From a virus: a DNA stretch of 40,754 nt. Within the stretch, counting starts at the first letter, position 1. Each line of letters starts with the position of its first letter. A program made the translations under genes and the position numbers. Positions 1-40,754 of the stretch are shown here, piece after piece. The notes under the pieces are model-generated. The model had not been told where the DNA came from. It did no database searches and worked only from the letters and a program-made list of their open reading frames with translations. The DNA is taken from the IMG/VR virus record IMGVR_UViG_3300033475_000073, positions 1-40,754 of that record, one strand, 5' to 3'.

Positions 1-127
1 TCGAACTCGCCGCGAAGATCAAAGAAATCCTTCATGTTCGCGCCACCGAACAACTCGATGTTGGCAATGAACTTGCCGGTCACGAACTTCTGAAGCGAGG
101 TTACGCCGGCCGCAACGATCTGCTTTT
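1..127. repeat. Terminal direct repeat, copy 1 (identical to 40628..40754)
   Basis: Read directly: tcgaactcgccgcgaagatc...gcaacgatctgctttt occurs at both ends. It lies inside a coding region, so it is most likely a circular-assembly overlap. Confidence 0.95.
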
Positions 128-3853: not shown

Positions 3854-4105
3854 TTACTTACCCGCGCCCAAGAGGCCGACAATATTGGTCGCCGTGGTGC
3901 TTGTAGCCTTGATGTTGCGAAGGCGAACCGGGATTAGTGCCCCAGCGGGCACAGCCTTGAACAGAACGGTGCGGCCGGACGGCGTGACCACGTTCACGTC
4001 ACCCGCGACGCCAACGTAGAACCCTACAAAGTTATTGGGGAGCTCTTTGGTATCGCTCGTAGTGATTGCAAATGCGTCGTAGGCAAGGGCTTTGGGGTCG
4101 AACAC
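3854..4105 (-). CDS. Spike base protein-like (GTA Rcc01079 family-like)
   Basis: 83-aa ORF with a GTG start. The pattern FYVGVAGDVNVVTPSGRTVLFKAVPAGALIPVRLRNIKATSTTATNIVGL matches my recollection of the RcGTA head-spike base family. Confidence 0.45.
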   Translation of the reverse strand: MFDPKALAYDAFAITTSDTKELPNNFVGFYVGVAGDVNVVTPSGRTVLFKAVPAGALIPVRLRNIKATSTTATNIVGLLGAGK

Positions 4106-4689
4106 TTATCAGGCATCCATGATGGACGTTGAGCCGTCTTGCCAGCATCAGGATCATCGATCCCGTAAGGCACCTTGCGGCAGGGGTGTAAAAGGTAGTT
4201 TTGGGGCGGCACATAGACGCTAATCCCGCGCCCGCGTGCGAAGCCGATCAGATATTCCATATTAGGGCGCTGATAGGCGTATTCACCGCCAGTCGCCAAG
4301 TCGCAGCCCCAAATCCCGATGCGATCCGCACCTTCCAGGATCGCGAGCGCCATCATGTAGGCGATGGAGCTTTCGAGATAGGCAGTCCCGTAGCAGGTCG
4401 CGCCGAAGGTCTTCTTCACCTCCTCCATCGGGTATTCCACCGAGTGAGGGATGTCCGCTTCCTGCTGAAGCATGTAAACCGGGACCGTAAGCCCTGCCAT
4501 CCATGCCTTGTGTATCTCCGCTGGCTCGCCACCGCCAAGGAAGTTGCGCCAGTTTTCGTGCATCTCGAAGTGACGGTCTGCACGCGGGAGCAAGTCCCAG
4601 GCCAGTGCCCACACTTCCCAGTCGTTAAAGTCGATAGGGGCATCGCTCCGGGAGTTGGAACACTTCCCCATGATCGCTATCTTGCGCAT
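4024..4689 (-). CDS. Rossmann-like enzyme of unplaced family, coupled partner of the glycosyltransferase
   Basis: 221 aa from the ATG at 4689 (TGATG overlap with the GT stop). Motifs KIAIMGKCSNS, HFEMHE, YLESSIAYMMALAILEG, GIWGCDL. The 3' end overlaps the next gene by 82 nt. Confidence 0.6.
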   Translation of the reverse strand: MRKIAIMGKCSNSRSDAPIDFNDWEVWALAWDLLPRADRHFEMHENWRNFLGGGEPAEIHKAWMAGLTVPVYMLQQEADIPHSVEYPMEEVKKTFGATCYGTAYLESSIAYMMALAILEGADRIGIWGCDLATGGEYAYQRPNMEYLIGFARGRGISVYVPPQNYLLHPCRKVPYGIDDPDAGKTAQRPSWMPDKCSTPKPLPTTHLQSLRAIPKSSPITL

Positions 4690-30983: not shown

Positions 30984-31064
30984 TTTCGGGCGGAACAAAA
31001 TGCGTTTGTTCTCCATTGGTTTCGCAGAACGTGCGCAGTTTTTCTAGGATTTCCGCGCGGCGAT

Positions 31065-31114
31065 TTCCCTTGGTAAGGGATAGGTCGTGAGTTCGATTCT
31101 CACCTACGGCACCA
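31065..31114 (+). other. attP core: 3' fragment of a tRNA-Thr(GGU) gene (anticodon arm to CCA)
   Basis: TTCCC-TTGGTAA-GGGAT anticodon arm (anticodon GGT), variable AGGTC, T arm GTGAG-TTCGATT-CTCAC, acceptor CTACGGC, then A and CCA. No matching 5' acceptor strand or D arm upstream, so it is not a complete tRNA. Confidence 0.8.
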
Positions 31115-31142
31115 TTCGTTTCAATAGCTTACGGGTTATTTC

Positions 31143-31170
31143 GGGACAGTGCGTCTGGGCCGATTGAACT
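31143..31170 (+). repeat. Direct repeat DR2 flanking attP
   Basis: GGGACAGTGCG-tctgggc-CGATTGAACT, 186 bp downstream of DR1. Confidence 0.6.
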
Positions 31171-31256
31171 CTGGCGCCCGCGCCGTCTGCGTGTAAACTG
31201 GGGCCCACCGACGCCCGCCATTCACCCTGACGCCGGACTAGCGAAGGGATTCGAGC

Positions 31257-31493
31257 ATGGGTGACCTCAGAAACAAATTCGCGAAGATCCAGCGCGCCAA
31301 GGCCGATAAGAGGGCCATGAATCGGTTTCTAGGGCTGCCGGCGGATTTCACACCTTCTTACCCAGCGCCAACACAAACCCGGTGTAGGTGCGGGTATACC
31401 TCTGTAGAGAGGCCTCTATGGCATGTGTCGGATAGAGGGGTGAACGGGGTTTATTGCAGGACGTGCTGGCCGGATGGAATTGAGAGGCCTTGA
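31257..31493 (+). CDS. Doubtful ORF (78 aa) in the attP-proximal region
   Basis: Track ORF. The first ~30 codons look native, but the rest is full of AGG/AGA/CTA/GTA codons and overlaps a cluster of CCTCT/AGAGG hairpins (31399..31438). Confidence 0.25.
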   Translation: MGDLRNKFAKIQRAKADKRAMNRFLGLPADFTPSYPAPTQTRCRCGYTSVERPLWHVSDRGVNGVYCRTCWPDGIERP

Positions 31494-31830
31494 ATGATGC
31501 GGGCCGGGCTTGATACCGGCTAGCGGGCCTTCCGAGGGGCGCCCTCCGCAACGCTTGGTACTTGCTGACAGCTTTCGCCCGTTCGTTCCCAATCGAAGCC
31601 CGGCAACTATCCCGCGCTGCTGTTTCGTGCGCGTCCATCCGCGCCGCCGCATCTGAAGGCCGTTTCGGAGGCTCTAGAACCCCGCATACCTGTCAGCGTC
31701 GAGGTGACAGGCTAAAACGGCCCACAGACAAGGCGATGTATTTACCTACCAAATCCACCCATAAAATGCAAGAGCGGGATTCCATTTAAGCCCGATAAAT
31801 GCTAGGTTAGATGAGAAGTTGGAGGTGCGC

Positions 31831-32073
31831 GTGGATATAGCGGAGGCCAGGAAAATAGCCGCAATAGTTGGAACCGCCGATGACGGATGCAGCCATTGCG
31901 TAAGAGGCTTAACAGATAGGCTAAACGACGCCTTCCCAGATTTTGTTTGGCATCCGACTGATGAGCCACAGCGAGAGATGCCGGCGTTGTCAACAGACAG
32001 CGACGACGCCACCACTATAGGAATAGTGGTCGCTGTATCGCGAAAAGATAAAGGCCCCGGCGACCCGCGTTAG
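31831..32073 (+). CDS. Moron-like hypothetical protein with atypical codon usage
   Basis: The GTG at 31831 lies 5 nt after GGAGG. VDIAEARKIAAIVGTADDGCSHCVRGLTDRLNDAFPDFVWH looks native. Many ATA/AGG/TTA/GTA codons, unlike the rest of the genome. Confidence 0.5.
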   Translation: MDIAEARKIAAIVGTADDGCSHCVRGLTDRLNDAFPDFVWHPTDEPQREMPALSTDSDDATTIGIVVAVSRKDKGPGDPR

Positions 32074-32090
32074 CAGATCAAGCCGGGGCC
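32053..32090. terminator. GC-rich stem-loop between convergent genes (candidate bidirectional terminator)
   Basis: GGCCCCGGC (32053..32061) pairs with GCCGGGGCC (32082..32090). 20-nt loop, no clear U-tract. Confidence 0.4.
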
Positions 32091-32141
32091 AGTACCGCGC
32101 TACTCAACAGCCGGGAGGGGGCCGACCGGAATGCGCGATCT

Positions 32142-32501
32142 CTAAAATGATTTCCTATCGAAGCCGTGTGCGATGCAGACGCGATCAGCAATTTCATCAA
32201 ATTCGGCGTTGTGCTGCGTCTTCGGCGTCTCCGACCGATTGATGTGCTGGTACAGATGGATTTGTTCGTGAGCCATAGAGGCCATGAGCATAAAGGTGCT
32301 GCCCACGAGTCTTTCAGAGATGGCGATTTCCACTTCGGTAGACCGCCGATACCCCTGCATGTGCGAGAAGCGATCCCTGTAACGCTTTACACTGAATTTC
32401 ACCTTGCTGGCTGGCGGCAGATTCAGTTCATCAAGTGGCGACGTTGCCCTCAGGTATTCATATGCCCTTGCGAGGTTCATCGGCGTAAGCCGCAGCGTCA
32501 T
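32142..32501 (-). CDS. SprT-like zinc metalloprotease domain protein
   Basis: 119 aa. KFSVKRYRDRFSHMQGY...IAISERL...MASMAHEQIHLYQH...HNAEFDEIADRV fits the SprT-like layout with an HExxH motif. Confidence 0.65.
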   Translation of the reverse strand: MTLRLTPMNLARAYEYLRATSPLDELNLPPASKVKFSVKRYRDRFSHMQGYRRSTEVEIAISERLVGSTFMLMASMAHEQIHLYQHINRSETPKTQHNAEFDEIADRVCIAHGFDRKSF

Positions 32502-32755
32502 GCAGAGAGACGCCTTGCAACAAGCTGGGCATAGCCGCCTATGTCGTGCCAGGAATCGAAATGGTCTTGGTTGCCGTTCAAAATTCGCGACACCTTGACC
32601 GCGATATGATCCAGGGCCTCGCGCTGATCTGGCGCCAATTCATTCCAGCGGCCGTTCATTCGAAACGCAGCCTTGATAGCCTGGGCAATGACAGATTGAT
32701 CTACAAATGAGCCGTACTCGCGGCCACGCTGTTCTAGCGTTCCCTCGATATTCAT
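32498..32755 (-). CDS. DUF6378-like small phage protein
   Basis: 85 aa. EQRGREYGSF...ALDHIAVKVSRILNGNQDHFDSWHDIGGYAQL resembles that family. Confidence 0.5.
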   Translation of the reverse strand: MNIEGTLEQRGREYGSFVDQSVIAQAIKAAFRMNGRWNELAPDQREALDHIAVKVSRILNGNQDHFDSWHDIGGYAQLVARRLSA

Positions 32756-32771
32756 GTTCCCTCGGATGCGG

Positions 32772-33608
32772 TTAAATTAGATGTGCCCAGTCGCCGCCGT
32801 ATTTGGCGCGGTGGTATTGCTGCAAGCTCATGCCGGTATATTTGCGGCACAAATAGTCCAGCGAGAGCGGCATGGGGCAGTGTTCGCCGTTTTGCACCTC
32901 GTTCAGGATCACGATACCGCGCCAGTGCCGCTGACCCTGCGCACCGCGATACGGCTCCTCGTGAACGTAGCAGCTGCCGGCCTGAATGCCCCACCATGTC
33001 TTACCGTTGCCCATGATCTTGGTGCCCATATCCAAGCCCTGCTGATGGCCGTGGACGAAGGACGCACCGATCTTTGTGAGCTTGTTGACGATGGAGCCAC
33101 CGATGGGCCGGTTGCTGTGCGATGCCTGGAAGTAATGGCTGTAGAGTATGCCATCTAGTTCAACGACTTTTAGGAAGTCGTGGCGCTCCCAGTCACGAGT
33201 ATCGCACTGGTCTGAGCCGATAGTGCCAAGCCACTTGGGATTGTTATTCGCAGCGCGGTCGGCGCGTATCTCGTGGTTGCCGGTGATGAAGACCTTGCGC
33301 GGATTCCAGCGCGCCCTATGTCTTGTCCGCCTGCGCTCAATCTCCGCATCCATAGGCTTGCAGAGAGTTGCGAATGCGGCATTACCAACCGCAACGTCAT
33401 CAGCATACCGCGCACCTTCAAGTGGTGCGGAGCCTGGCTCTTCATGCCCGTTAAGGCTAGGATGGTCCCAATGGTCCCCTAGGTGAATGACAACATCGGG
33501 CCTATAGTGAACTATGGCCTCTGCGATCCATTCAAGGTGGTCGAGTGGAACGCCGGGACGGACTTGGGTATCGGGTATAATCAGGTGACGCCTTGGCCCC
33601 TCAGCCAT
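32772..33608 (-). CDS. Calcineurin-like metallophosphoesterase
   Basis: 278 aa with LIIPDTQ, VIHLGDHWD, ITGNHE and FVHGHQQG motifs in canonical order. Confidence 0.85.
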   Translation of the reverse strand: MAEGPRRHLIIPDTQVRPGVPLDHLEWIAEAIVHYRPDVVIHLGDHWDHPSLNGHEEPGSAPLEGARYADDVAVGNAAFATLCKPMDAEIERRRTRHRARWNPRKVFITGNHEIRADRAANNNPKWLGTIGSDQCDTRDWERHDFLKVVELDGILYSHYFQASHSNRPIGGSIVNKLTKIGASFVHGHQQGLDMGTKIMGNGKTWWGIQAGSCYVHEEPYRGAQGQRHWRGIVILNEVQNGEHCPMPLSLDYLCRKYTGMSLQQYHRAKYGGDWAHLI

Positions 33609-33609
33609 G

Positions 33610-33867
33610 TTAATGCCTCACGAATGAGTAAATGGCGGCACCAATGCCAAACAGCCACCCGATCAGACCGCCAACCATCAGGATGGCGTTGAAGGCCCCG
33701 CCCCCCTGCGCAGCTATCTTTTCCAAGGCTTTGATCGAGTCTTTGATTTCCGAAACATCGCCCTGGACCGCAGACATTTCGGCCTCAAGGCGGGCCAAGC
33801 GTTCAACATCACTATGCGGCATAGGCCGCCAAGTCTGGCGATTGTGCCGGTTTCTGATATGACTCAT
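33610..33867 (-). CDS. Coiled-coil protein with C-terminal transmembrane anchor (possible lysis accessory)
   Basis: 85-aa track ORF (alternative ATG at 33822). LARLEAEMSAVQGDVSEIKDSIKALEK followed by AFNAILMVGGLIGWLFGIGAAIYSF. Confidence 0.5.
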   Translation of the reverse strand: MSHIRNRHNRQTWRPMPHSDVERLARLEAEMSAVQGDVSEIKDSIKALEKIAAQGGGAFNAILMVGGLIGWLFGIGAAIYSFVRH

Positions 33868-33908
33868 TCGCCATGTTCAGCCTGTTTAAGAGGTTGGGGA
33901 TGGAAGTC

Positions 33909-33940
33909 GGGGCCGCTGTTCTTCGCGGGAGAGCGGCCCC
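33909..33940 (-). terminator. Strong GC stem-loop just downstream of the holin gene
   Basis: GGGGCCGCT (33909..33917) pairs with AGCGGCCCC (33932..33940). 9-bp stem, 14-nt loop. No U-tract on the minus strand. Confidence 0.4.
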
Positions 33941-33949
33941 GGCGCTGTG

Positions 33950-34378
33950 TTACTTCGTTGCGACGCCGTTGAGCTTCTCATACATACGCATACTGCCAAG
34001 GCCCAACATGCCGGCAAGCAGCGTCAGAAGCGTTCCCATATCGAGGCTGGGATAATCTACGATGCGCCCAAACCACTGCGACAAGAACATGGCGAACGGA
34101 CGGAAAATAAACTGAGACAGAAGGCCGAGAGCGCAAACCCAGCCAACGGCGGGCCGCCAACCGGAAACGAACAGATTTGGGTTAGCCGCCTCGGCCGCGT
34201 TGACGGCGTTCTGCGCCTTGGCGATGTCCGTATCAGCCGTCAGCTGCGCCAGTTCGCCAGTCTGCGTCATCTTCAGCAGCTCAAGCTTCGCCGCGTCTTT
34301 TTGCGCCGGGTCAGGCCAGAGACGGTCGATCAGCTTACCACCGATGTCGAGCGCGGCAGAGATTGGGTCAAATGCCAT
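33950..34378 (-). CDS. Holin, 3-TM GTA-type family
   Basis: 142 aa. AQNAVNAAEAANPNLFVSGWRPAVGWVCALGLLSQFIFRP...LLAGMLGLGSMRMYEKLNG matches the GTA_holin_3TM pattern. Confidence 0.8.
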   Translation of the reverse strand: MAFDPISAALDIGGKLIDRLWPDPAQKDAAKLELLKMTQTGELAQLTADTDIAKAQNAVNAAEAANPNLFVSGWRPAVGWVCALGLLSQFIFRPFAMFLSQWFGRIVDYPSLDMGTLLTLLAGMLGLGSMRMYEKLNGVATK

Positions 34379-34737
34379 TATTCAATCACCTCAAGGATTT
34401 TGTCTTTGCTGGCCGCGACGGCCTTGCGCAAAGCGGGGCCGATCACGATGCAGCCGTGCGATGCGTCATGCTGTGAATTGTCGCCATGAATGCGAAACAG
34501 TGAGCGGCCGAAGGTGTTAGTACCTTCCAGTGGGTCCAGGTTCATTACGCACGGGCCAAGATGCGGATGGTCGTATGCGGGGCCGATGCTGTATTTGCCG
34601 ATGGGGATGGGGCCGACGCCTTGAACGGCAATCATTTTTGGGTTGTTGCGGCCTTCGTCACGGCCGGAATAACCTGAACCAACCCGCAAGGCGTCATGTC
34701 CGAGCCAGCCGGTTTCGATGCGGTAGAGCCAAGGCAT
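34378..34737 (-). CDS. Tlde1/DUF2778 (YkuD-like L,D-transpeptidase fold) protein, putative endolysin
   Basis: 119 aa from the ATG at 34737 (GGAGGA upstream). GVGPIPIGKYSIGP...GRSLFRIHGDNSQHDASHGCIVIG carries the His ... Ser-x-Gly-Cys catalytic pattern. Its stop shares a nt with the holin ATG (TAATG). Confidence 0.7.
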   Translation of the reverse strand: MPWLYRIETGWLGHDALRVGSGYSGRDEGRNNPKMIAVQGVGPIPIGKYSIGPAYDHPHLGPCVMNLDPLEGTNTFGRSLFRIHGDNSQHDASHGCIVIGPALRKAVAASKDKILEVIE

Positions 34738-34739
34738 CG

Positions 34740-36089
34740 CTAGCCAATCCTCCACCCTGACCCGTCATGGTAGACGGGCACATTGTTTGATCCGCCGCCA
34801 ACCGCAGAGGTGGCGAACGTCGTAGAATTGGCGTCTGATACGAAGGAGCGAGCTCCCTTGGCGCCGGTCGGGAGCGTTCCGACGGTATAGACCTTCGTCC
34901 CGAGCGTTCCGTTGCCAGTCGCAGTCGTACCGCCGATGATAAGGCTGCCGTCAGTCTGAACGACGGGGCCAAGGATTGAATCACTCGCGTTGTAGGCGAT
35001 GGTGAGCGCGGTTGTGCCGTGACCGGAGCCCGGTCCCATAAGCCACGCTTTTCCGCTCGCGGCTCCGTCGATAAAGCGTATCGAATCGCTGCTTACGCTA
35101 TTATTGGAAATGTTGAACTGGCTTGTGAGAGCTGCACCACCAACGCCAGCTTTGCCAGTCACCGCTAGCGTTGACGAGGCAGAGGTCGCCCGTGTGAGCG
35201 TGATATTGCCAGTCGATGTACCGCCCAGGGTAATCGTACCGGACCCCTTGGCATCGACTGTAAGGTTTTCATTTGTACCAGACGAATTTACCGAAATGGA
35301 GGCGCCTGACGCAGCCGCCCTGCCCGTGACCGTGATGCCAGTAGCGGCGCTTGGCGCAGATCCATCGACTTTTAGAGCGGGGTTGGTAGTTCCATTTGCG
35401 CCGACGCTTAGACTGGTGACAGTCAAATTCGAAGACGGCTTCCCGCCGGCGCTCCAAGAGAACGTAAAGAAGTCAGTCTGCGTGGCAAAGTCATCCGAAA
35501 GCGTCGAAAATCCCAGAAAGCCGGATGCGCCATAGATGACAGAGTTTTTCAGATTGGTGCCGGCACTGCTAGTGGCAAACTGAAATGTCGGCTGCGAACC
35601 GTCGCTAACACCAGGAAAGGAAGTGCCCATGCTAATCATGGTGAAAGCGCCGGGCCAAGGTGTACCCGTGACGGGAATTTGGCTCAGATAAACGGTAATA
35701 GTCTCATTGGCGAGCGAGCCGCCATTGTCCCACAGAACCTGAACATTCGTATTCGTGGAGAATGAGACACTGGAAATGGTGCCATAGATGGTGCCAGTGG
35801 ATGAGCCGACAGCCTTAACGCGGCGGTACTTGTGATAGACTGTGCTGACATCTACGCTGTTGATGCGAAATGCGTTGCCGCTGACGTAGACAACCTTGCC
35901 AACATCGGTGCCGTCACCAGAGCCGTAGCGGAACCAGATCAGATCGTTGAACGCAGATCGCGCATCCGCCATGTTTGCGCGGGCAGAATTGTTCACAACA
36001 CCGGGGTTCATCCCCTCGTCCCAGTTAATGCCAGTGTTGGCATTGATGTTGTTCGCGGCAGTTGTGGAATAGGTATTGTAGCCAGTCAT
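34740..36089 (-). CDS. Tail fibre / receptor-binding protein
   Basis: 449 aa, rich in G/S/T/N. The N-terminal INWDEGMNPGVVNNSARANMAD motif resembles virion-anchoring ends of podovirus fibres. Last structural gene before lysis. Confidence 0.65.
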   Translation of the reverse strand: MTGYNTYSTTAANNINANTGINWDEGMNPGVVNNSARANMADARSAFNDLIWFRYGSGDGTDVGKVVYVSGNAFRINSVDVSTVYHKYRRVKAVGSSTGTIYGTISSVSFSTNTNVQVLWDNGGSLANETITVYLSQIPVTGTPWPGAFTMISMGTSFPGVSDGSQPTFQFATSSAGTNLKNSVIYGASGFLGFSTLSDDFATQTDFFTFSWSAGGKPSSNLTVTSLSVGANGTTNPALKVDGSAPSAATGITVTGRAAASGASISVNSSGTNENLTVDAKGSGTITLGGTSTGNITLTRATSASSTLAVTGKAGVGGAALTSQFNISNNSVSSDSIRFIDGAASGKAWLMGPGSGHGTTALTIAYNASDSILGPVVQTDGSLIIGGTTATGNGTLGTKVYTVGTLPTGAKGARSFVSDANSTTFATSAVGGGSNNVPVYHDGSGWRIG

Positions 36090-40513: not shown

Positions 40514-40754
40514 TAGAGTTTTTTCGCCATCACATAGGAAGCGAGCCGGTAGTCATCCAAGAACTTGGTCCACCCTTTGCGCGCAAAAAACCTGATTTCC
40601 TCGCAGCCCTCCTCTTTCGCCCACTTCTCGAACTCGCCGCGAAGATCAAAGAAATCCTTCATGTTCGCGCCACCGAACAACTCGATGTTGGCAATGAACT
40701 TGCCGGTCACGAACTTCTGAAGCGAGGTTACGCCGGCCGCAACGATCTGCTTTT
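40513..40754 (-). CDS. 3' part of the junction-spanning 104-aa hypothetical protein (5' part at 1..200)
   Basis: The track ORF 40513..40710 is the truncated version. The reading frame stays open to the window end and continues at 128..200 after removing the duplicated 127 bp. Confidence 0.6.
   Translation of the reverse strand, partial: KQIVAAGVTSLQKFVTGKFIANIELFGGANMKDFFDLRGEFEKWAKEEGCEEIRFFARKGWTKFLDDYRLASYVMAKKL
40628..40754. repeat. Terminal direct repeat, copy 2 (identical to 1..127)
   Basis: Same 127-nt string as 1..127. Confidence 0.95.

What the first reader, a model, noticed from the sequence alone, without database searches (positions are those of the whole stretch)
33950..34737. 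Tlde1/DUF2778 (YkuD-fold) protein in the endolysin slot next to a GTA-type 3TM holin
The gene directly before the holin, with its stop fused to the holin start (TAATG), is not a lysozyme, amidase or transglycosylase. It has the Tlde1-like layout GPIPIGKYSI ... FRIHGDN ... ASHGCIV, the His/Cys pattern of L,D-transpeptidase-fold enzymes. Tlde1 is known as a type VI secretion effector that attacks peptidoglycan stem peptides. Using this fold as a phage lysis enzyme would be unusual. Alphaproteobacterial walls are rich in 3-3 crosslinks, which could explain the choice.
Basis: partly seen in the sequence, partly recalled or inferred. Interest (0 to 1): 0.66.

Follow-up and report, generated by a model that had tools for sequence, protein, structure and literature searches.

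The report
Phage lysis enzyme with transpeptidase fold
A complete 40.6-kb phage genome carries, in the position where the cell-wall-cutting lysis enzyme normally sits beside the holin, a tiny 119-residue cysteine enzyme of the L,D-transpeptidase (Tlde1/YkuD) fold, and relatives occupy the same position in many unrelated phages, which points to an undescribed class of phage endolysin.

Summary
On the minus strand, a 119-aa ORF (34378-34737) passes Pfam's Tlde1_dom threshold. Its stop overlaps (TAATG) the start of a 142-aa GTA_holin_3TM holin (33950-34378). A confident AlphaFold model matches only L,D-transpeptidases, Tlde1a and Pgp2. His84 and Cys96 are invariant in homologues.

The window is a circular, complete temperate phage genome. 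I found no other recognisable peptidoglycan hydrolase in it. The same holin family sits beside a lysozyme, an M15 peptidase or an "endolysin" in other phages.

Close homologues (57-79% identity, all about 118-120 aa, no signal peptide) lie at the end of tail modules or in the Mu "lys" position. Small membrane proteins are enriched around them. They occur in podovirus, myovirus, Mu-like prophage and even microvirus genomes. A separate Enterobacterales clade has the type VI layout (Hcp upstream, signal-peptide protein downstream), which the window lacks.

Best reading: a holin-dependent L,D-peptidase endolysin. Its activity, and above all any cross-link cleavage, is inferred and not shown. The literature I searched holds only a database listing (PhaLP: "YkuD" class, 10 entries, one PF10908) and no experiments.

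The parts
34378..34737 (-). Gene for a 119-aa (12.9 kDa, pI 7.0) soluble Tlde1/DUF2778-type, YkuD-fold cysteine L,D-peptidase. This is the proposed endolysin.
   Evidence: ORF and motifs. Pfam PF10908 E=2.3e-12, above cutoff. phrog_24118 E=1.9e-28. AF2 pLDDT 93.6. Foldseek hits are only LDTs, Tlde1a and Pgp2. No hydrophobic segment.
34486..34488 (-). Codon of His84 (FRIHG), the predicted catalytic histidine.
   Evidence: Read from the sequence. Invariant in 35 close homologues and 29 diverse ones.
34450..34452 (-). Codon of Cys96 (ASHGC), the predicted catalytic nucleophile.
   Evidence: Read from the sequence. Invariant in A1 and A3, together with S93 and G95.
34376..34380 (-). TAATG stop/start overlap that couples the enzyme gene to the holin gene.
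   Evidence: Sequence; ORF coordinates.
33950..34378 (-). Holin, 142 aa, GTA_holin_3TM family.
   Evidence: Pfam PF11351 E=1.5e-23. phrog_3427 holin E=8.9e-34. Hydrophobic stretches at about residues 69-100 and 110-132. Homologues lie beside a lysozyme, M15 peptidase or endolysin in other phages.
34749..34753 (-). GGAGG Shine-Dalgarno-like motif 11 nt upstream of the enzyme's ATG, inside the 3' end of the tail-fibre-like gene (stop at 34740-34742, 2 nt before the ATG).
   Evidence: Sequence. The function is inferred.
34389..34392 (-). GAGG Shine-Dalgarno-like motif 10 nt upstream of the holin ATG, inside the enzyme gene.
   Evidence: Sequence. The function is inferred.
33610..33867 (-). 85-aa protein with a basic, coiled-coil N-terminal part and one C-terminal TM segment. 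It may be an antiholin or lysis accessory. Whether it belongs to the cassette is uncertain.
   Evidence: Weak hits only: DUF1515 E=0.0017 and phrog_10340 holin/antiholin E=7.8e-4. TM at about residues 55-83.

Best explanation
The 119-aa protein is most likely the phage's endolysin, a holin-dependent cysteine L,D-peptidase of the YkuD/Tlde1 fold.

Proposed course:
1. It is made from the late operation unit, directly after the tail-fibre-like gene and translationally coupled to the holin.
2. It accumulates as a folded soluble enzyme in the cytoplasm, because it has no export signal.
3. It reaches the wall when the GTA_holin_3TM holin permeabilises the inner membrane.
4. Cys96, activated by His84, attacks the carbonyl of the L-centre of meso-diaminopimelate at position 3 of peptidoglycan stems. 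This forms a thioester that water then resolves.
5. To cause rapid lysis it must act as an endopeptidase. The leaving group would then be the acceptor stem of a 3-3 cross-link, or the D-Ala4 that carries the acceptor stem in a 4-3 cross-link. Removing a free D-Ala4 (carboxypeptidase activity) would not be enough.

Shown here: gene position and coupling, fold, invariant catalytic residues, absence of an export signal, absence of any other recognisable muralytic gene in a complete genome, and recurrence of homologues in lysis positions of unrelated phages.

Inferred: enzymatic activity, bond specificity and the role in lysis.
For: 1. Family and fold. Pfam PF10908 is above threshold. The AF2 model has pLDDT 93.6 and pTM 0.87. 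Its significant PDB neighbours are only L,D-transpeptidases, Tlde1a (TM-score on the query 0.63-0.66) and the LD-carboxypeptidase Pgp2. H84, S93, G95, C96, R78 and R104 are invariant.

2. Slot. TAATG coupling to a holin. Homologous holins (33-47% identity) abut a lysozyme (MW202674), an M15 peptidase (phage Venkman) or an 'endolysin' (Paracoccus phage ParKuw1, same gene order as the window).

3. Complete genome. There is a 127-nt exact terminal repeat. No other peptidoglycan hydrolase appears among all ORFs of 100 aa or more by PHROGs and Pfam.

4. Recurrence.
- 543 clusters of mostly stand-alone proteins of about 118-120 aa.
- A syntenic relative, L078, keeps the enzyme but swaps the holin for a 2-TM DUF7940 protein with a 4-nt start/stop overlap.
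- The same pairing occurs in a DNA-polymerase-A-encoding phage contig.
- A myovirus contig has it after the baseplate and fibre genes, followed by TM proteins.
- A Mu-like prophage on a 1.15-Mb alphaproteobacterial contig has it between gam and terminase, where Mu's lysis genes lie (from background knowledge).
- A 4.36-kb microvirus encodes one.
- Small TM ORFs are enriched next to the gene: 29/73 near against 30/277 far, odds ratio 5.4, p=6e-8. An abutting small TM ORF is present in 14 of 29 loci.

5. Precedent for hydrolytic YkuD enzymes. Tlde1a is an LD-carboxypeptidase. LdtCd2 and LdtCd3 show LD-endopeptidase activity, and DpaA is an amidase (PMC12729407).
Against: - No biochemistry exists for any member of this clade.
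- The one characterised relative, Tlde1a, is an LD-carboxypeptidase and D-amino-acid exchanger. In the cited work, cells expressing it formed blebs and lysed after about 4.5 h. It is not a sacculus-dissolving enzyme, so endopeptidase activity is an extrapolation.
- About half of the phage-type loci have no abutting TM ORF.
- PHROGs recognised only one holin and one Rz-like spanin among 131 neighbours.
- Some phages carry a DUF2778 gene outside a complete canonical lysis module, for example Burkholderia phage JC1 gp41 against gp72-76 (PMC9144972). Others carry it with no annotated lysis genes nearby, for example the Dickeya and Erwinia jumbo phages.
- About 20 window ORFs have no annotation. 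One of them could be an unrecognised endolysin.
Confidence: 0.65

Rival explanations
1. It is an accessory wall-editing or lysis-helper enzyme, not the main endolysin. For example, it could be an LD-carboxypeptidase, or a DpaA-like amidase that trims stems or detaches LDT-linked outer-membrane proteins. The true endolysin would then be one of the unannotated ORFs.
For: Characterised relatives are a carboxypeptidase/exchanger (Tlde1a) or a protein-detaching amidase (DpaA). The window has no recognisable spanin and about 20 ORFs without any family hit. Some phages with a full canonical lysis module also carry a DUF2778 gene.
Against: None of the unannotated ORFs lies in the cassette. The enzyme is the gene coupled to the holin, and this holin family is normally paired with a bona fide endolysin at that position. 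The microvirus has room for very few genes yet keeps this one.
Confidence: 0.17
2. It is a virion-associated wall-penetrating enzyme used at infection. It would be encoded as the last gene of the tail module and only happen to be adjacent to the holin.
For: It starts 2 nt after the tail-fibre-like gene. BFVD shows YkuD-like domains embedded in virion proteins of more than 900 aa in cyanophages, and in a protein with a tape-measure domain.
Against: It is a free 119-aa domain with no attachment module. It overlaps the holin start. Homologues are also found in the Mu 'lys' position far from tail genes, and next to a DNA polymerase B gene with only short non-TM ORFs upstream in an 88-kb contig.
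Confidence: 0.07
3. It is a toxin or moron of the Tlde1 type. It would be used by the lysogen against competitors or for superinfection exclusion, and not for lysis.
For: It shares 40-52% identity with a clade of Hcp-linked Enterobacterales proteins that have the effector-immunity layout.
Against: The window has no Hcp, VgrG or PAAR gene and no downstream signal-peptide (immunity-like) gene. The gene lies in the late structural and lysis block, not near the integrase or repressor.
Confidence: 0.05

Closest known systems
Tlde1a (Tae5) of Salmonella Typhimurium, a T6SS effector (PDB 7UO3/7UO8)
   Same: Same Pfam family (PF10908) and YkuD-type fold. It has the catalytic His...Cys pair with the short spacing typical of DUF2778, and it acts on peptidoglycan stem peptides from the periplasmic side.
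   Different: Tlde1a is 173-174 aa and has a capping subdomain. It is delivered by the T6SS and neutralised by a periplasmic immunity protein. The window protein is 119 aa, and its only predicted helix lies after the catalytic Cys. It is 14-17% identical in structural alignment and undetectable by sequence against the PDB. It is paired with a holin, not with Hcp and an immunity gene.
Hcp-linked Tlde1-domain proteins of about 120 aa in Enterobacterales (probably the Tae7/Tlde1c family of the Sibinelli-Sousa preprint)
   Same: Same minimal length and 40-52% identity. The genera match (Pantoea, Erwinia, Enterobacter, S. enterica subsp. diarizonae), as listed for Tae7.
   Different: These have Hcp directly upstream (PF05638, E=4.9e-27 in L050) and a 155-175-aa signal-peptide protein downstream. 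They form a separate clade in a rough NJ tree. They have a shorter loop after the GPIP hairpin and a longer His-Cys spacer.
'YkuD' enzymatically active domain class of phage lytic proteins in PhaLP
   Same: It catalogues L,D-transpeptidase-fold domains in annotated phage lysins, including one PF10908 entry (PMC8310338).
   Different: It is a database tally of 10 entries with no biochemical or genetic characterisation. It does not recognise a large stand-alone clade located in lysis cassettes.
Hydrolytic YkuD-fold enzymes: DpaA/LdtF (E. coli), LdtCd2/LdtCd3 (C. difficile), Csd6/Pgp2
   Same: They show that this fold can hydrolyse rather than form bonds at the mDAP L-centre. The activities are amidase, LD-endopeptidase and LD-carboxypeptidase. 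Pgp2 is among the fold hits.
   Different: They are housekeeping periplasmic enzymes with signal peptides, and they are larger. None is a phage lysis enzyme.
RcGTA-type holin/endolysin pair and other phage cassettes that use GTA_holin_3TM holins
   Same: Same holin family, with tight coupling to the adjacent wall enzyme.
   Different: The partner enzyme in those cassettes is a lysozyme/muramidase or an M15 peptidase, not a YkuD-fold cysteine peptidase.

Membership tests
Pfam Tlde1_dom (PF10908, formerly DUF2778), YkuD-like superfamily | Profile-HMM match above the curated gathering score | tested here: met
   47.8 bits against a cutoff of 30.1, E=2.3e-12, profile positions 4-97 of 120.
Pfam Tlde1_dom (PF10908, formerly DUF2778), YkuD-like superfamily | Catalytic His and [S/T]xGC Cys with short His-Cys spacing | tested here: met
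   H84 and S93-H94-G95-C96. H84, S93, G95 and C96 are invariant in A1 (35 sequences) and A3 (29 diverse sequences).
Pfam Tlde1_dom (PF10908, formerly DUF2778), YkuD-like superfamily | L,D-transpeptidase (YkuD) three-dimensional fold | tested here: met
   AF2 pLDDT 93.6. All Foldseek PDB hits with probability of 0.77 or more are LDTs, Tlde1a, Pgp2 or one Clostridium amidase/peptidase.
Pfam Tlde1_dom (PF10908, formerly DUF2778), YkuD-like superfamily | LD-carboxypeptidase or LD-transpeptidase activity on mDAP-D-Ala | not testable with these tools
   This needs muropeptide assays.
Tlde1-type T6SS effector | Encoded with T6SS delivery genes (Hcp, VgrG, PAAR or Rhs) | tested here: not met
   There are none in the complete 40.6-kb genome. 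The Enterobacterales clade, by contrast, has Hcp upstream.
Tlde1-type T6SS effector | Adjacent cognate immunity gene with a signal peptide | tested here: not met
   The downstream gene is a holin. No ORF with an N-terminal signal peptide is adjacent.
Tlde1-type T6SS effector | Capping subdomain over the active-site cleft (Tlde1a) | tested here: inconclusive
   The protein is 119 aa against 174 aa. There is no helix before the catalytic His in the model. The TM-score normalised to Tlde1a is only 0.45-0.47. I could not superpose coordinates.
Canonical holin-dependent phage endolysin | Encoded in a lysis cassette next to a holin | tested here: met
   TAATG overlap with a PF11351 / phrog_3427 holin.
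Canonical holin-dependent phage endolysin | Soluble cytoplasmic protein without a signal or SAR sequence | tested here: met
   Maximum 19-residue hydropathy is 0.9.
Canonical holin-dependent phage endolysin | Degrades peptidoglycan and is required for lysis | not testable with these tools
   Only indirect evidence exists. It is the sole recognisable wall-active domain in a complete genome, and homologues recur in lysis positions.
GTA_holin_3TM (PF11351), for the neighbouring gene | Profile match and membrane segments, with a partner endolysin adjacent in other genomes | tested here: met
   E=1.5e-23. Hydrophobic stretches at about residues 69-100 and 110-132. Partners are a lysozyme, M15 peptidase or endolysin.

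The most novel reading that the evidence does not exclude
The enzyme attacks the mDAP L-centre acyl bond whatever the leaving group. It would then cut 3-3 cross-links, the donor stem of 4-3 cross-links, and the LDT-made tethers that fix outer-membrane proteins or lipoproteins to peptidoglycan. A single 13-kDa protein would do the endolysin job and part of the outer-membrane release job. That would explain why this phage has no recognisable spanin. It would also explain why a 4.36-kb microvirus can lyse with this enzyme plus one small TM protein. The Hcp-linked T6SS effectors would be domesticated copies of this phage endolysin class.
Probability: 0.12. Interest if true: 0.8.

Novelty: new variant of a known kind. 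Interest (0 to 1): 0.6.

Why it matters
Endolysins are grouped by a limited set of catalytic domains (glycosidases, amidases, metallo- and NlpC/CHAP-type peptidases). A widespread stand-alone cysteine L,D-peptidase of the transpeptidase fold would add a class that PHROGs still labels 'unknown function'.

- **Annotation.** It would give a function to the close homologues found here in phage and prophage DNA (543 protein clusters in all), and to a microvirus gene.
- **Evolution.** It would link type VI effectors to phage lysis enzymes.
- **Application.** It would offer a minimal (13 kDa) scaffold that targets the mDAP L,D bonds typical of bacteria rich in 3-3 cross-links.
- **Testability.** It makes one open point directly testable: whether YkuD-fold enzymes can run 'in reverse' as efficient cross-link endopeptidases.

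Tried and rejected
- **Megablast of 24.7 kb of the window against 50,697 phage records.** There was no real relative, so no annotated close genome could be used.
- **phmmer with the window's holin and its 85-aa neighbour against all fetched DUF2778 loci.** There were no homologues. The enzyme-holin pairing is therefore not a conserved pair, only a conserved kind of slot.
- **PHROGs scan of 131 small neighbours of phage-type homologues.** Almost nothing was recognised: one holin and one Rz-like spanin. I therefore relied on hydropathy-based TM counts from crude ORF calling. This measure is rough.
- **Sequence searches of the PDB with the protein and with two profiles.** No Tlde1a hit appeared, only a weak ErfK-family hit at E=0.37.
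- **Pfam scan of ten homologues with 120-250-aa N-terminal extensions.** I was looking for a cell-wall-binding domain that would mark modular endolysins. None was found, and one carried an RHS fragment.
- **Promoter and terminator scans around the cassette.** Counts were at chance level. A GC-rich hairpin just after the holin stop is not significantly stable (z = -1.86).
- **Search for a lipoprotein o-spanin in the window.** It gave only an antisense artefact.
- **Literature searches** on DUF2778/endolysin, Tlde1/phage/lysis, YkuD/endolysin, PF10908, transpeptidase/endolysin/holin and LD-endopeptidase/phage. No experimental report of such an endolysin turned up.
- **GTG start at 34755.** I considered it and rejected it, because the homologue N-termini support the ATG.
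Full report
**What is in the sequence**

Both genes of the finding lie on the minus strand.
- ORF 34378..34737 encodes 119 aa: MPWLYRIE...GPIPIGKYSI...FRIHGDN...ASHGCIV...EVIE.
- Its TAA stop (34378-34380) shares one base with the ATG (34376-34378) of ORF 33950..34378, which is 142 aa.
- The enzyme's ATG lies 2 nt after the TAG of a 449-aa tail-fibre-like gene (34740..36089).
- A GGAGG at 34749-34753 precedes the enzyme's ATG. A GAGG at 34389-34392 precedes the holin's ATG.
- A GTG at 34755 could extend the ORF to 125 aa. The N-termini of 35 homologues support the ATG.

**Identity of the two genes**

The enzyme:
- It matches Pfam Tlde1_dom (PF10908, formerly DUF2778) at E=2.3e-12, 47.8 bits against a cutoff of 30.1. 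It has sub-threshold matches to YkuD and DUF5675.
- PHROGs places it in phrog_24118, 'unknown function' (E=1.9e-28).
- An AlphaFold2 model built on 35 homologues is confident (pLDDT 93.6, pTM 0.87). It is a small beta-rich domain, and its only helix (residues 101-109) comes after the catalytic cysteine.
- Foldseek against the PDB returns only L,D-transpeptidases (LdtMt2, Ldtfm and others), Tlde1a (7UO3/7UO8, the best query-normalised TM-scores at 0.63-0.66), the LD-carboxypeptidase Pgp2, and one Clostridium amidase/peptidase.
- H84, S93, G95 and C96 are invariant in close and in diverse homologues, as are R78, F81 and R104.
- The protein has no hydrophobic segment (maximum 19-residue hydropathy 0.9). 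It therefore has no signal peptide or SAR domain.

The neighbour is GTA_holin_3TM (PF11351, E=1.5e-23) and phrog_3427 'holin' (E=8.9e-34).

**The genome**

- The window ends in an exact 127-nt direct repeat, so it is a circular assembly of a complete genome of about 40.6 kb with 57.9% G+C.
- The gene content is that of a temperate tailed phage. It includes an integrase, Erf, SSB, NinB and RusA, a large terminase, portal, scaffold and major capsid protein, and a P22-like 'DNA ejection protein'.
- The structural block runs across the ends of the window and finishes with the fibre-like gene, the enzyme and the holin.
- I scanned every ORF of 100 aa or more with PHROGs and put those without a hit through Pfam. 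Apart from the DUF2778 protein, no lysozyme, transglycosylase, amidase or peptidase domain appeared.
- About 20 ORFs remain without any family, so a novel hidden endolysin cannot be excluded.
- No lipoprotein-type spanin is detectable.
- The gene after the holin (33610..33867, 85 aa) has a coiled-coil N-terminal part and a single C-terminal TM. It gives only weak holin/antiholin-like hits.

**Is this the endolysin slot?**

Homologues of this holin (33-47% identity) occur in phages of Vibrio, Alteromonas, Pseudoalteromonas, Roseobacter, Paracoccus and Methylophilales. In the three I opened:
- Methylophilales phage Venkman has the holin overlapping an M15 peptidase.
- The Manatee Spring podovirus MW202674 has the holin overlapping a lysozyme.
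- Paracoccus phage ParKuw1 has an 'endolysin' immediately upstream of the holin, the same order as in the window.

This holin family is therefore habitually coupled to the wall-degrading enzyme. In the window that place is taken by the YkuD-fold protein.

**Relatives elsewhere**

Family size:
- The 5.8-billion-protein search gave 543 clusters. The best 120 are nearly all 117-121 aa, 57-79% identical, and carry PF10908.
- A profile search of 1.84 billion 50%-identity representatives found 2,755 (E<=1e-3), 1,880 (E<=1e-10) and 151 (E<=1e-30) proteins. Most of the best 150 are stand-alone. Some lie at the C-terminus of proteins of 1,286-2,250 aa.

Genomic contexts fall into three types.

1. Phage type.
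   - L078, a 43.9-kb IMG/VR contig, is syntenic with the window. Its order is enzyme, small TM proteins, a 279-aa protein, DUF6378, integrase. The holin place is filled by a 67-aa 2-TM DUF7940 protein whose start overlaps the enzyme's stop by 4 nt.
   - L079, a DNA-polymerase-A-encoding phage contig, has the same enzyme-DUF7940 pair.
   - L005, a myovirus contig, has the gene after the baseplate and fibre genes, followed by two overlapping TM proteins.
   - L035 lies on a 1.15-Mb contig of an alphaproteobacterial MAG. It is a Mu-like prophage with the gene between a Gam homologue and the large terminase. From background knowledge, that is where Mu keeps its lysis genes.
   - With crude ORF calling and a hydropathy rule, small TM ORFs make up 29 of 73 ORFs within two genes of the enzyme, against 30 of 277 farther away (odds ratio 5.4, p=6e-8).
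   - 14 of 29 non-redundant loci have a small TM ORF directly abutting the enzyme gene.

2. T6SS type. In Pantoea, Erwinia, Enterobacter, Mixta, Rahnella, Siccibacter and Salmonella diarizonae, the 120-aa gene usually lies between a 163-aa ORF and a 155-168-aa protein with an N-terminal signal-like segment. I scanned that 163-aa ORF only in L050, where it is Hcp (PF05638, E=4.9e-27). Photorhabdus has the signal-peptide ORF (175 aa) downstream but a 330-aa ORF upstream. This is the effector-immunity layout.

3. Rhs type. The domain ends proteins of 1,364-1,571 aa.

A rough neighbour-joining tree puts the window among phage-type loci and the Hcp-linked genes in a separate clade. It has no support values.

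Other phage occurrences:
- tblastn against 50,697 phage genomes found 58 records. They are the Erwinia and Dickeya jumbo phages, one Yersinia phage, and the 4,360-nt Citromicrobium microvirus vB_Cib_ssDNA_P1 (45% identity).
- The microvirus gpB passes the Tlde1_dom threshold (E=8.3e-12). Its paper leaves gpB unannotated.

**Mechanism**

The steps shown are the fold, the catalytic residues, the lack of an export signal and the coupling to the holin. The rest is inferred.

YkuD-fold enzymes use the cysteine to attack the carbonyl of the L-centre of mDAP at position 3 and form a thioester. An amine then resolves it (transpeptidation), or water does (hydrolysis). This is established knowledge summarised in PMC12729407 and PMC9638812.

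Hydrolytic members are known:
- Tlde1a is an LD-carboxypeptidase.
- Csd6 and Pgp2 are LD-carboxypeptidases.
- DpaA detaches Lpp.
- LdtCd2 and LdtCd3 show LD-endopeptidase activity in vitro.

For holin-triggered lysis a carboxypeptidase would not be enough. I therefore propose endopeptidase action on 3-3 cross-links, and possibly on the donor stem of 4-3 cross-links. The window protein is 55 residues shorter than Tlde1a, and its model has no helix ahead of the catalytic histidine. It probably lacks the capping subdomain that closes Tlde1a's cleft. An open cleft could admit a cross-linked substrate. This is speculation.

**Comparison with what is known**

- By Pfam score, motif and fold, the protein is a member of PF10908.
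- It is not a Tlde1a-type T6SS effector. It has no T6SS genes and no immunity gene, and probably no cap. Neither it nor two family profiles detect Tlde1a by sequence in the PDB.
- L,D-transpeptidase-fold domains in phage lytic proteins are catalogued but marginal. PhaLP lists a 'YkuD' class with 10 entries, one of them PF10908. A gut-phage survey mentions one multidomain protein with YkuD. BFVD shows such domains inside large cyanophage virion proteins.
- Six literature searches found no experimental work on a DUF2778/Tlde1-type endolysin.
- The 2025 LDT review mentions neither phage enzymes of this fold nor Tlde1.

**Caveats**

- Not every phage DUF2778 gene is in a lysis cassette. Burkholderia phage JC1 has one (gp41) next to the terminase, plus a complete holin-holin-lysozyme-Rz/Rz1 module elsewhere.
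- In the Dickeya jumbo phage JA29 the gene has no annotated lysis neighbours.
- The host of the window phage is unknown. The nearest genome hits are alphaproteobacterial MAGs (Rhizomicrobium and uncultured Alphaproteobacteria, 56-61% identity).
- The capsid protein resembles those of Sinorhizobium, Bradyrhizobium and Rhizobium phages.
- Relatives also occur in bins of other phyla.

**Verdict**

The biochemical claim stays open. I rate it a new variant of a known kind (an endolysin with an uncharacterised catalytic class), interest 0.6.

Noticed in passing
L001 (Citromicrobium phage vB_Cib_ssDNA_P1, MG214764.1) 1328-1738 and 4014-4190: This 4,360-nt microvirus encodes a Tlde1-domain protein (gpB, 136 aa, no signal peptide). 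It also encodes a 58-aa protein (gpE) with a basic N-terminus and one strongly hydrophobic TM segment. Together these could form a two-gene holin-like / L,D-peptidase lysis system in a microvirus. Its paper leaves gpB unannotated.
   Followed up: partly
L078 10354-10557; L079 10357-10569: DUF7940 (PF25612, 67-70 aa; the L078 copy scores E=1.1e-13, tested as L013 5351-5551) directly follows the DUF2778 gene with a 4-nt overlap in two unrelated phage contigs. Two TM segments are predicted in both copies. It is probably an unannotated holin family.
   Followed up: partly
window 31000-34000 and whole window: There is no recognisable spanin (no lipoprotein o-spanin ORF, no N-terminal-TM i-spanin) in a complete genome of a phage with a presumably Gram-negative host. 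The 85-aa gene after the holin (33610-33867) has a C-terminal TM and a coiled coil instead.
   Followed up: partly
window 1-127 and 40628-40754: An exact 127-nt terminal direct repeat shows the contig is a circular assembly of a complete genome. The structural gene block runs across the window ends.
   Followed up: yes
L042-L067, L072, L075 (Enterobacterales genome loci), e.g. L050 4498-5827: There is a clade of 118-124-aa Tlde1-domain genes. Most are flanked by a 163-aa ORF upstream (shown to be Hcp in L050) and a 155-175-aa signal-peptide protein downstream. These are compact Hcp-effector-immunity cassettes. Pantoea sp. FN060301 has three copies.
   Followed up: partly
window 33909-33940 (minus strand, just after the holin stop): A 9-bp GC-rich inverted repeat (GGGGCCGCU...AGCGGCCCC) without a U-tract. 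The 85-nt stretch folds at -26.9 kcal/mol but z is only -1.86, so it is not clearly a terminator.
   Followed up: yes
P0121 (262 aa), P0126, P0148, P0194: Some representatives carry two matched stretches of the domain. They could be tandem Tlde1-like domains, or two fused adjacent genes.
   Followed up: no
window 32772-33608, 32498-32755, 32142-32501 (minus strand): The lysis genes are followed by a metallophosphoesterase (phrog_221, E=3.6e-49), a DUF6378 protein and a SprT-like protein. A 279-aa ORF (no Pfam hit, not compared with the window's phosphoesterase) followed by a DUF6378 protein recurs in the syntenic contig L078.
   Followed up: no
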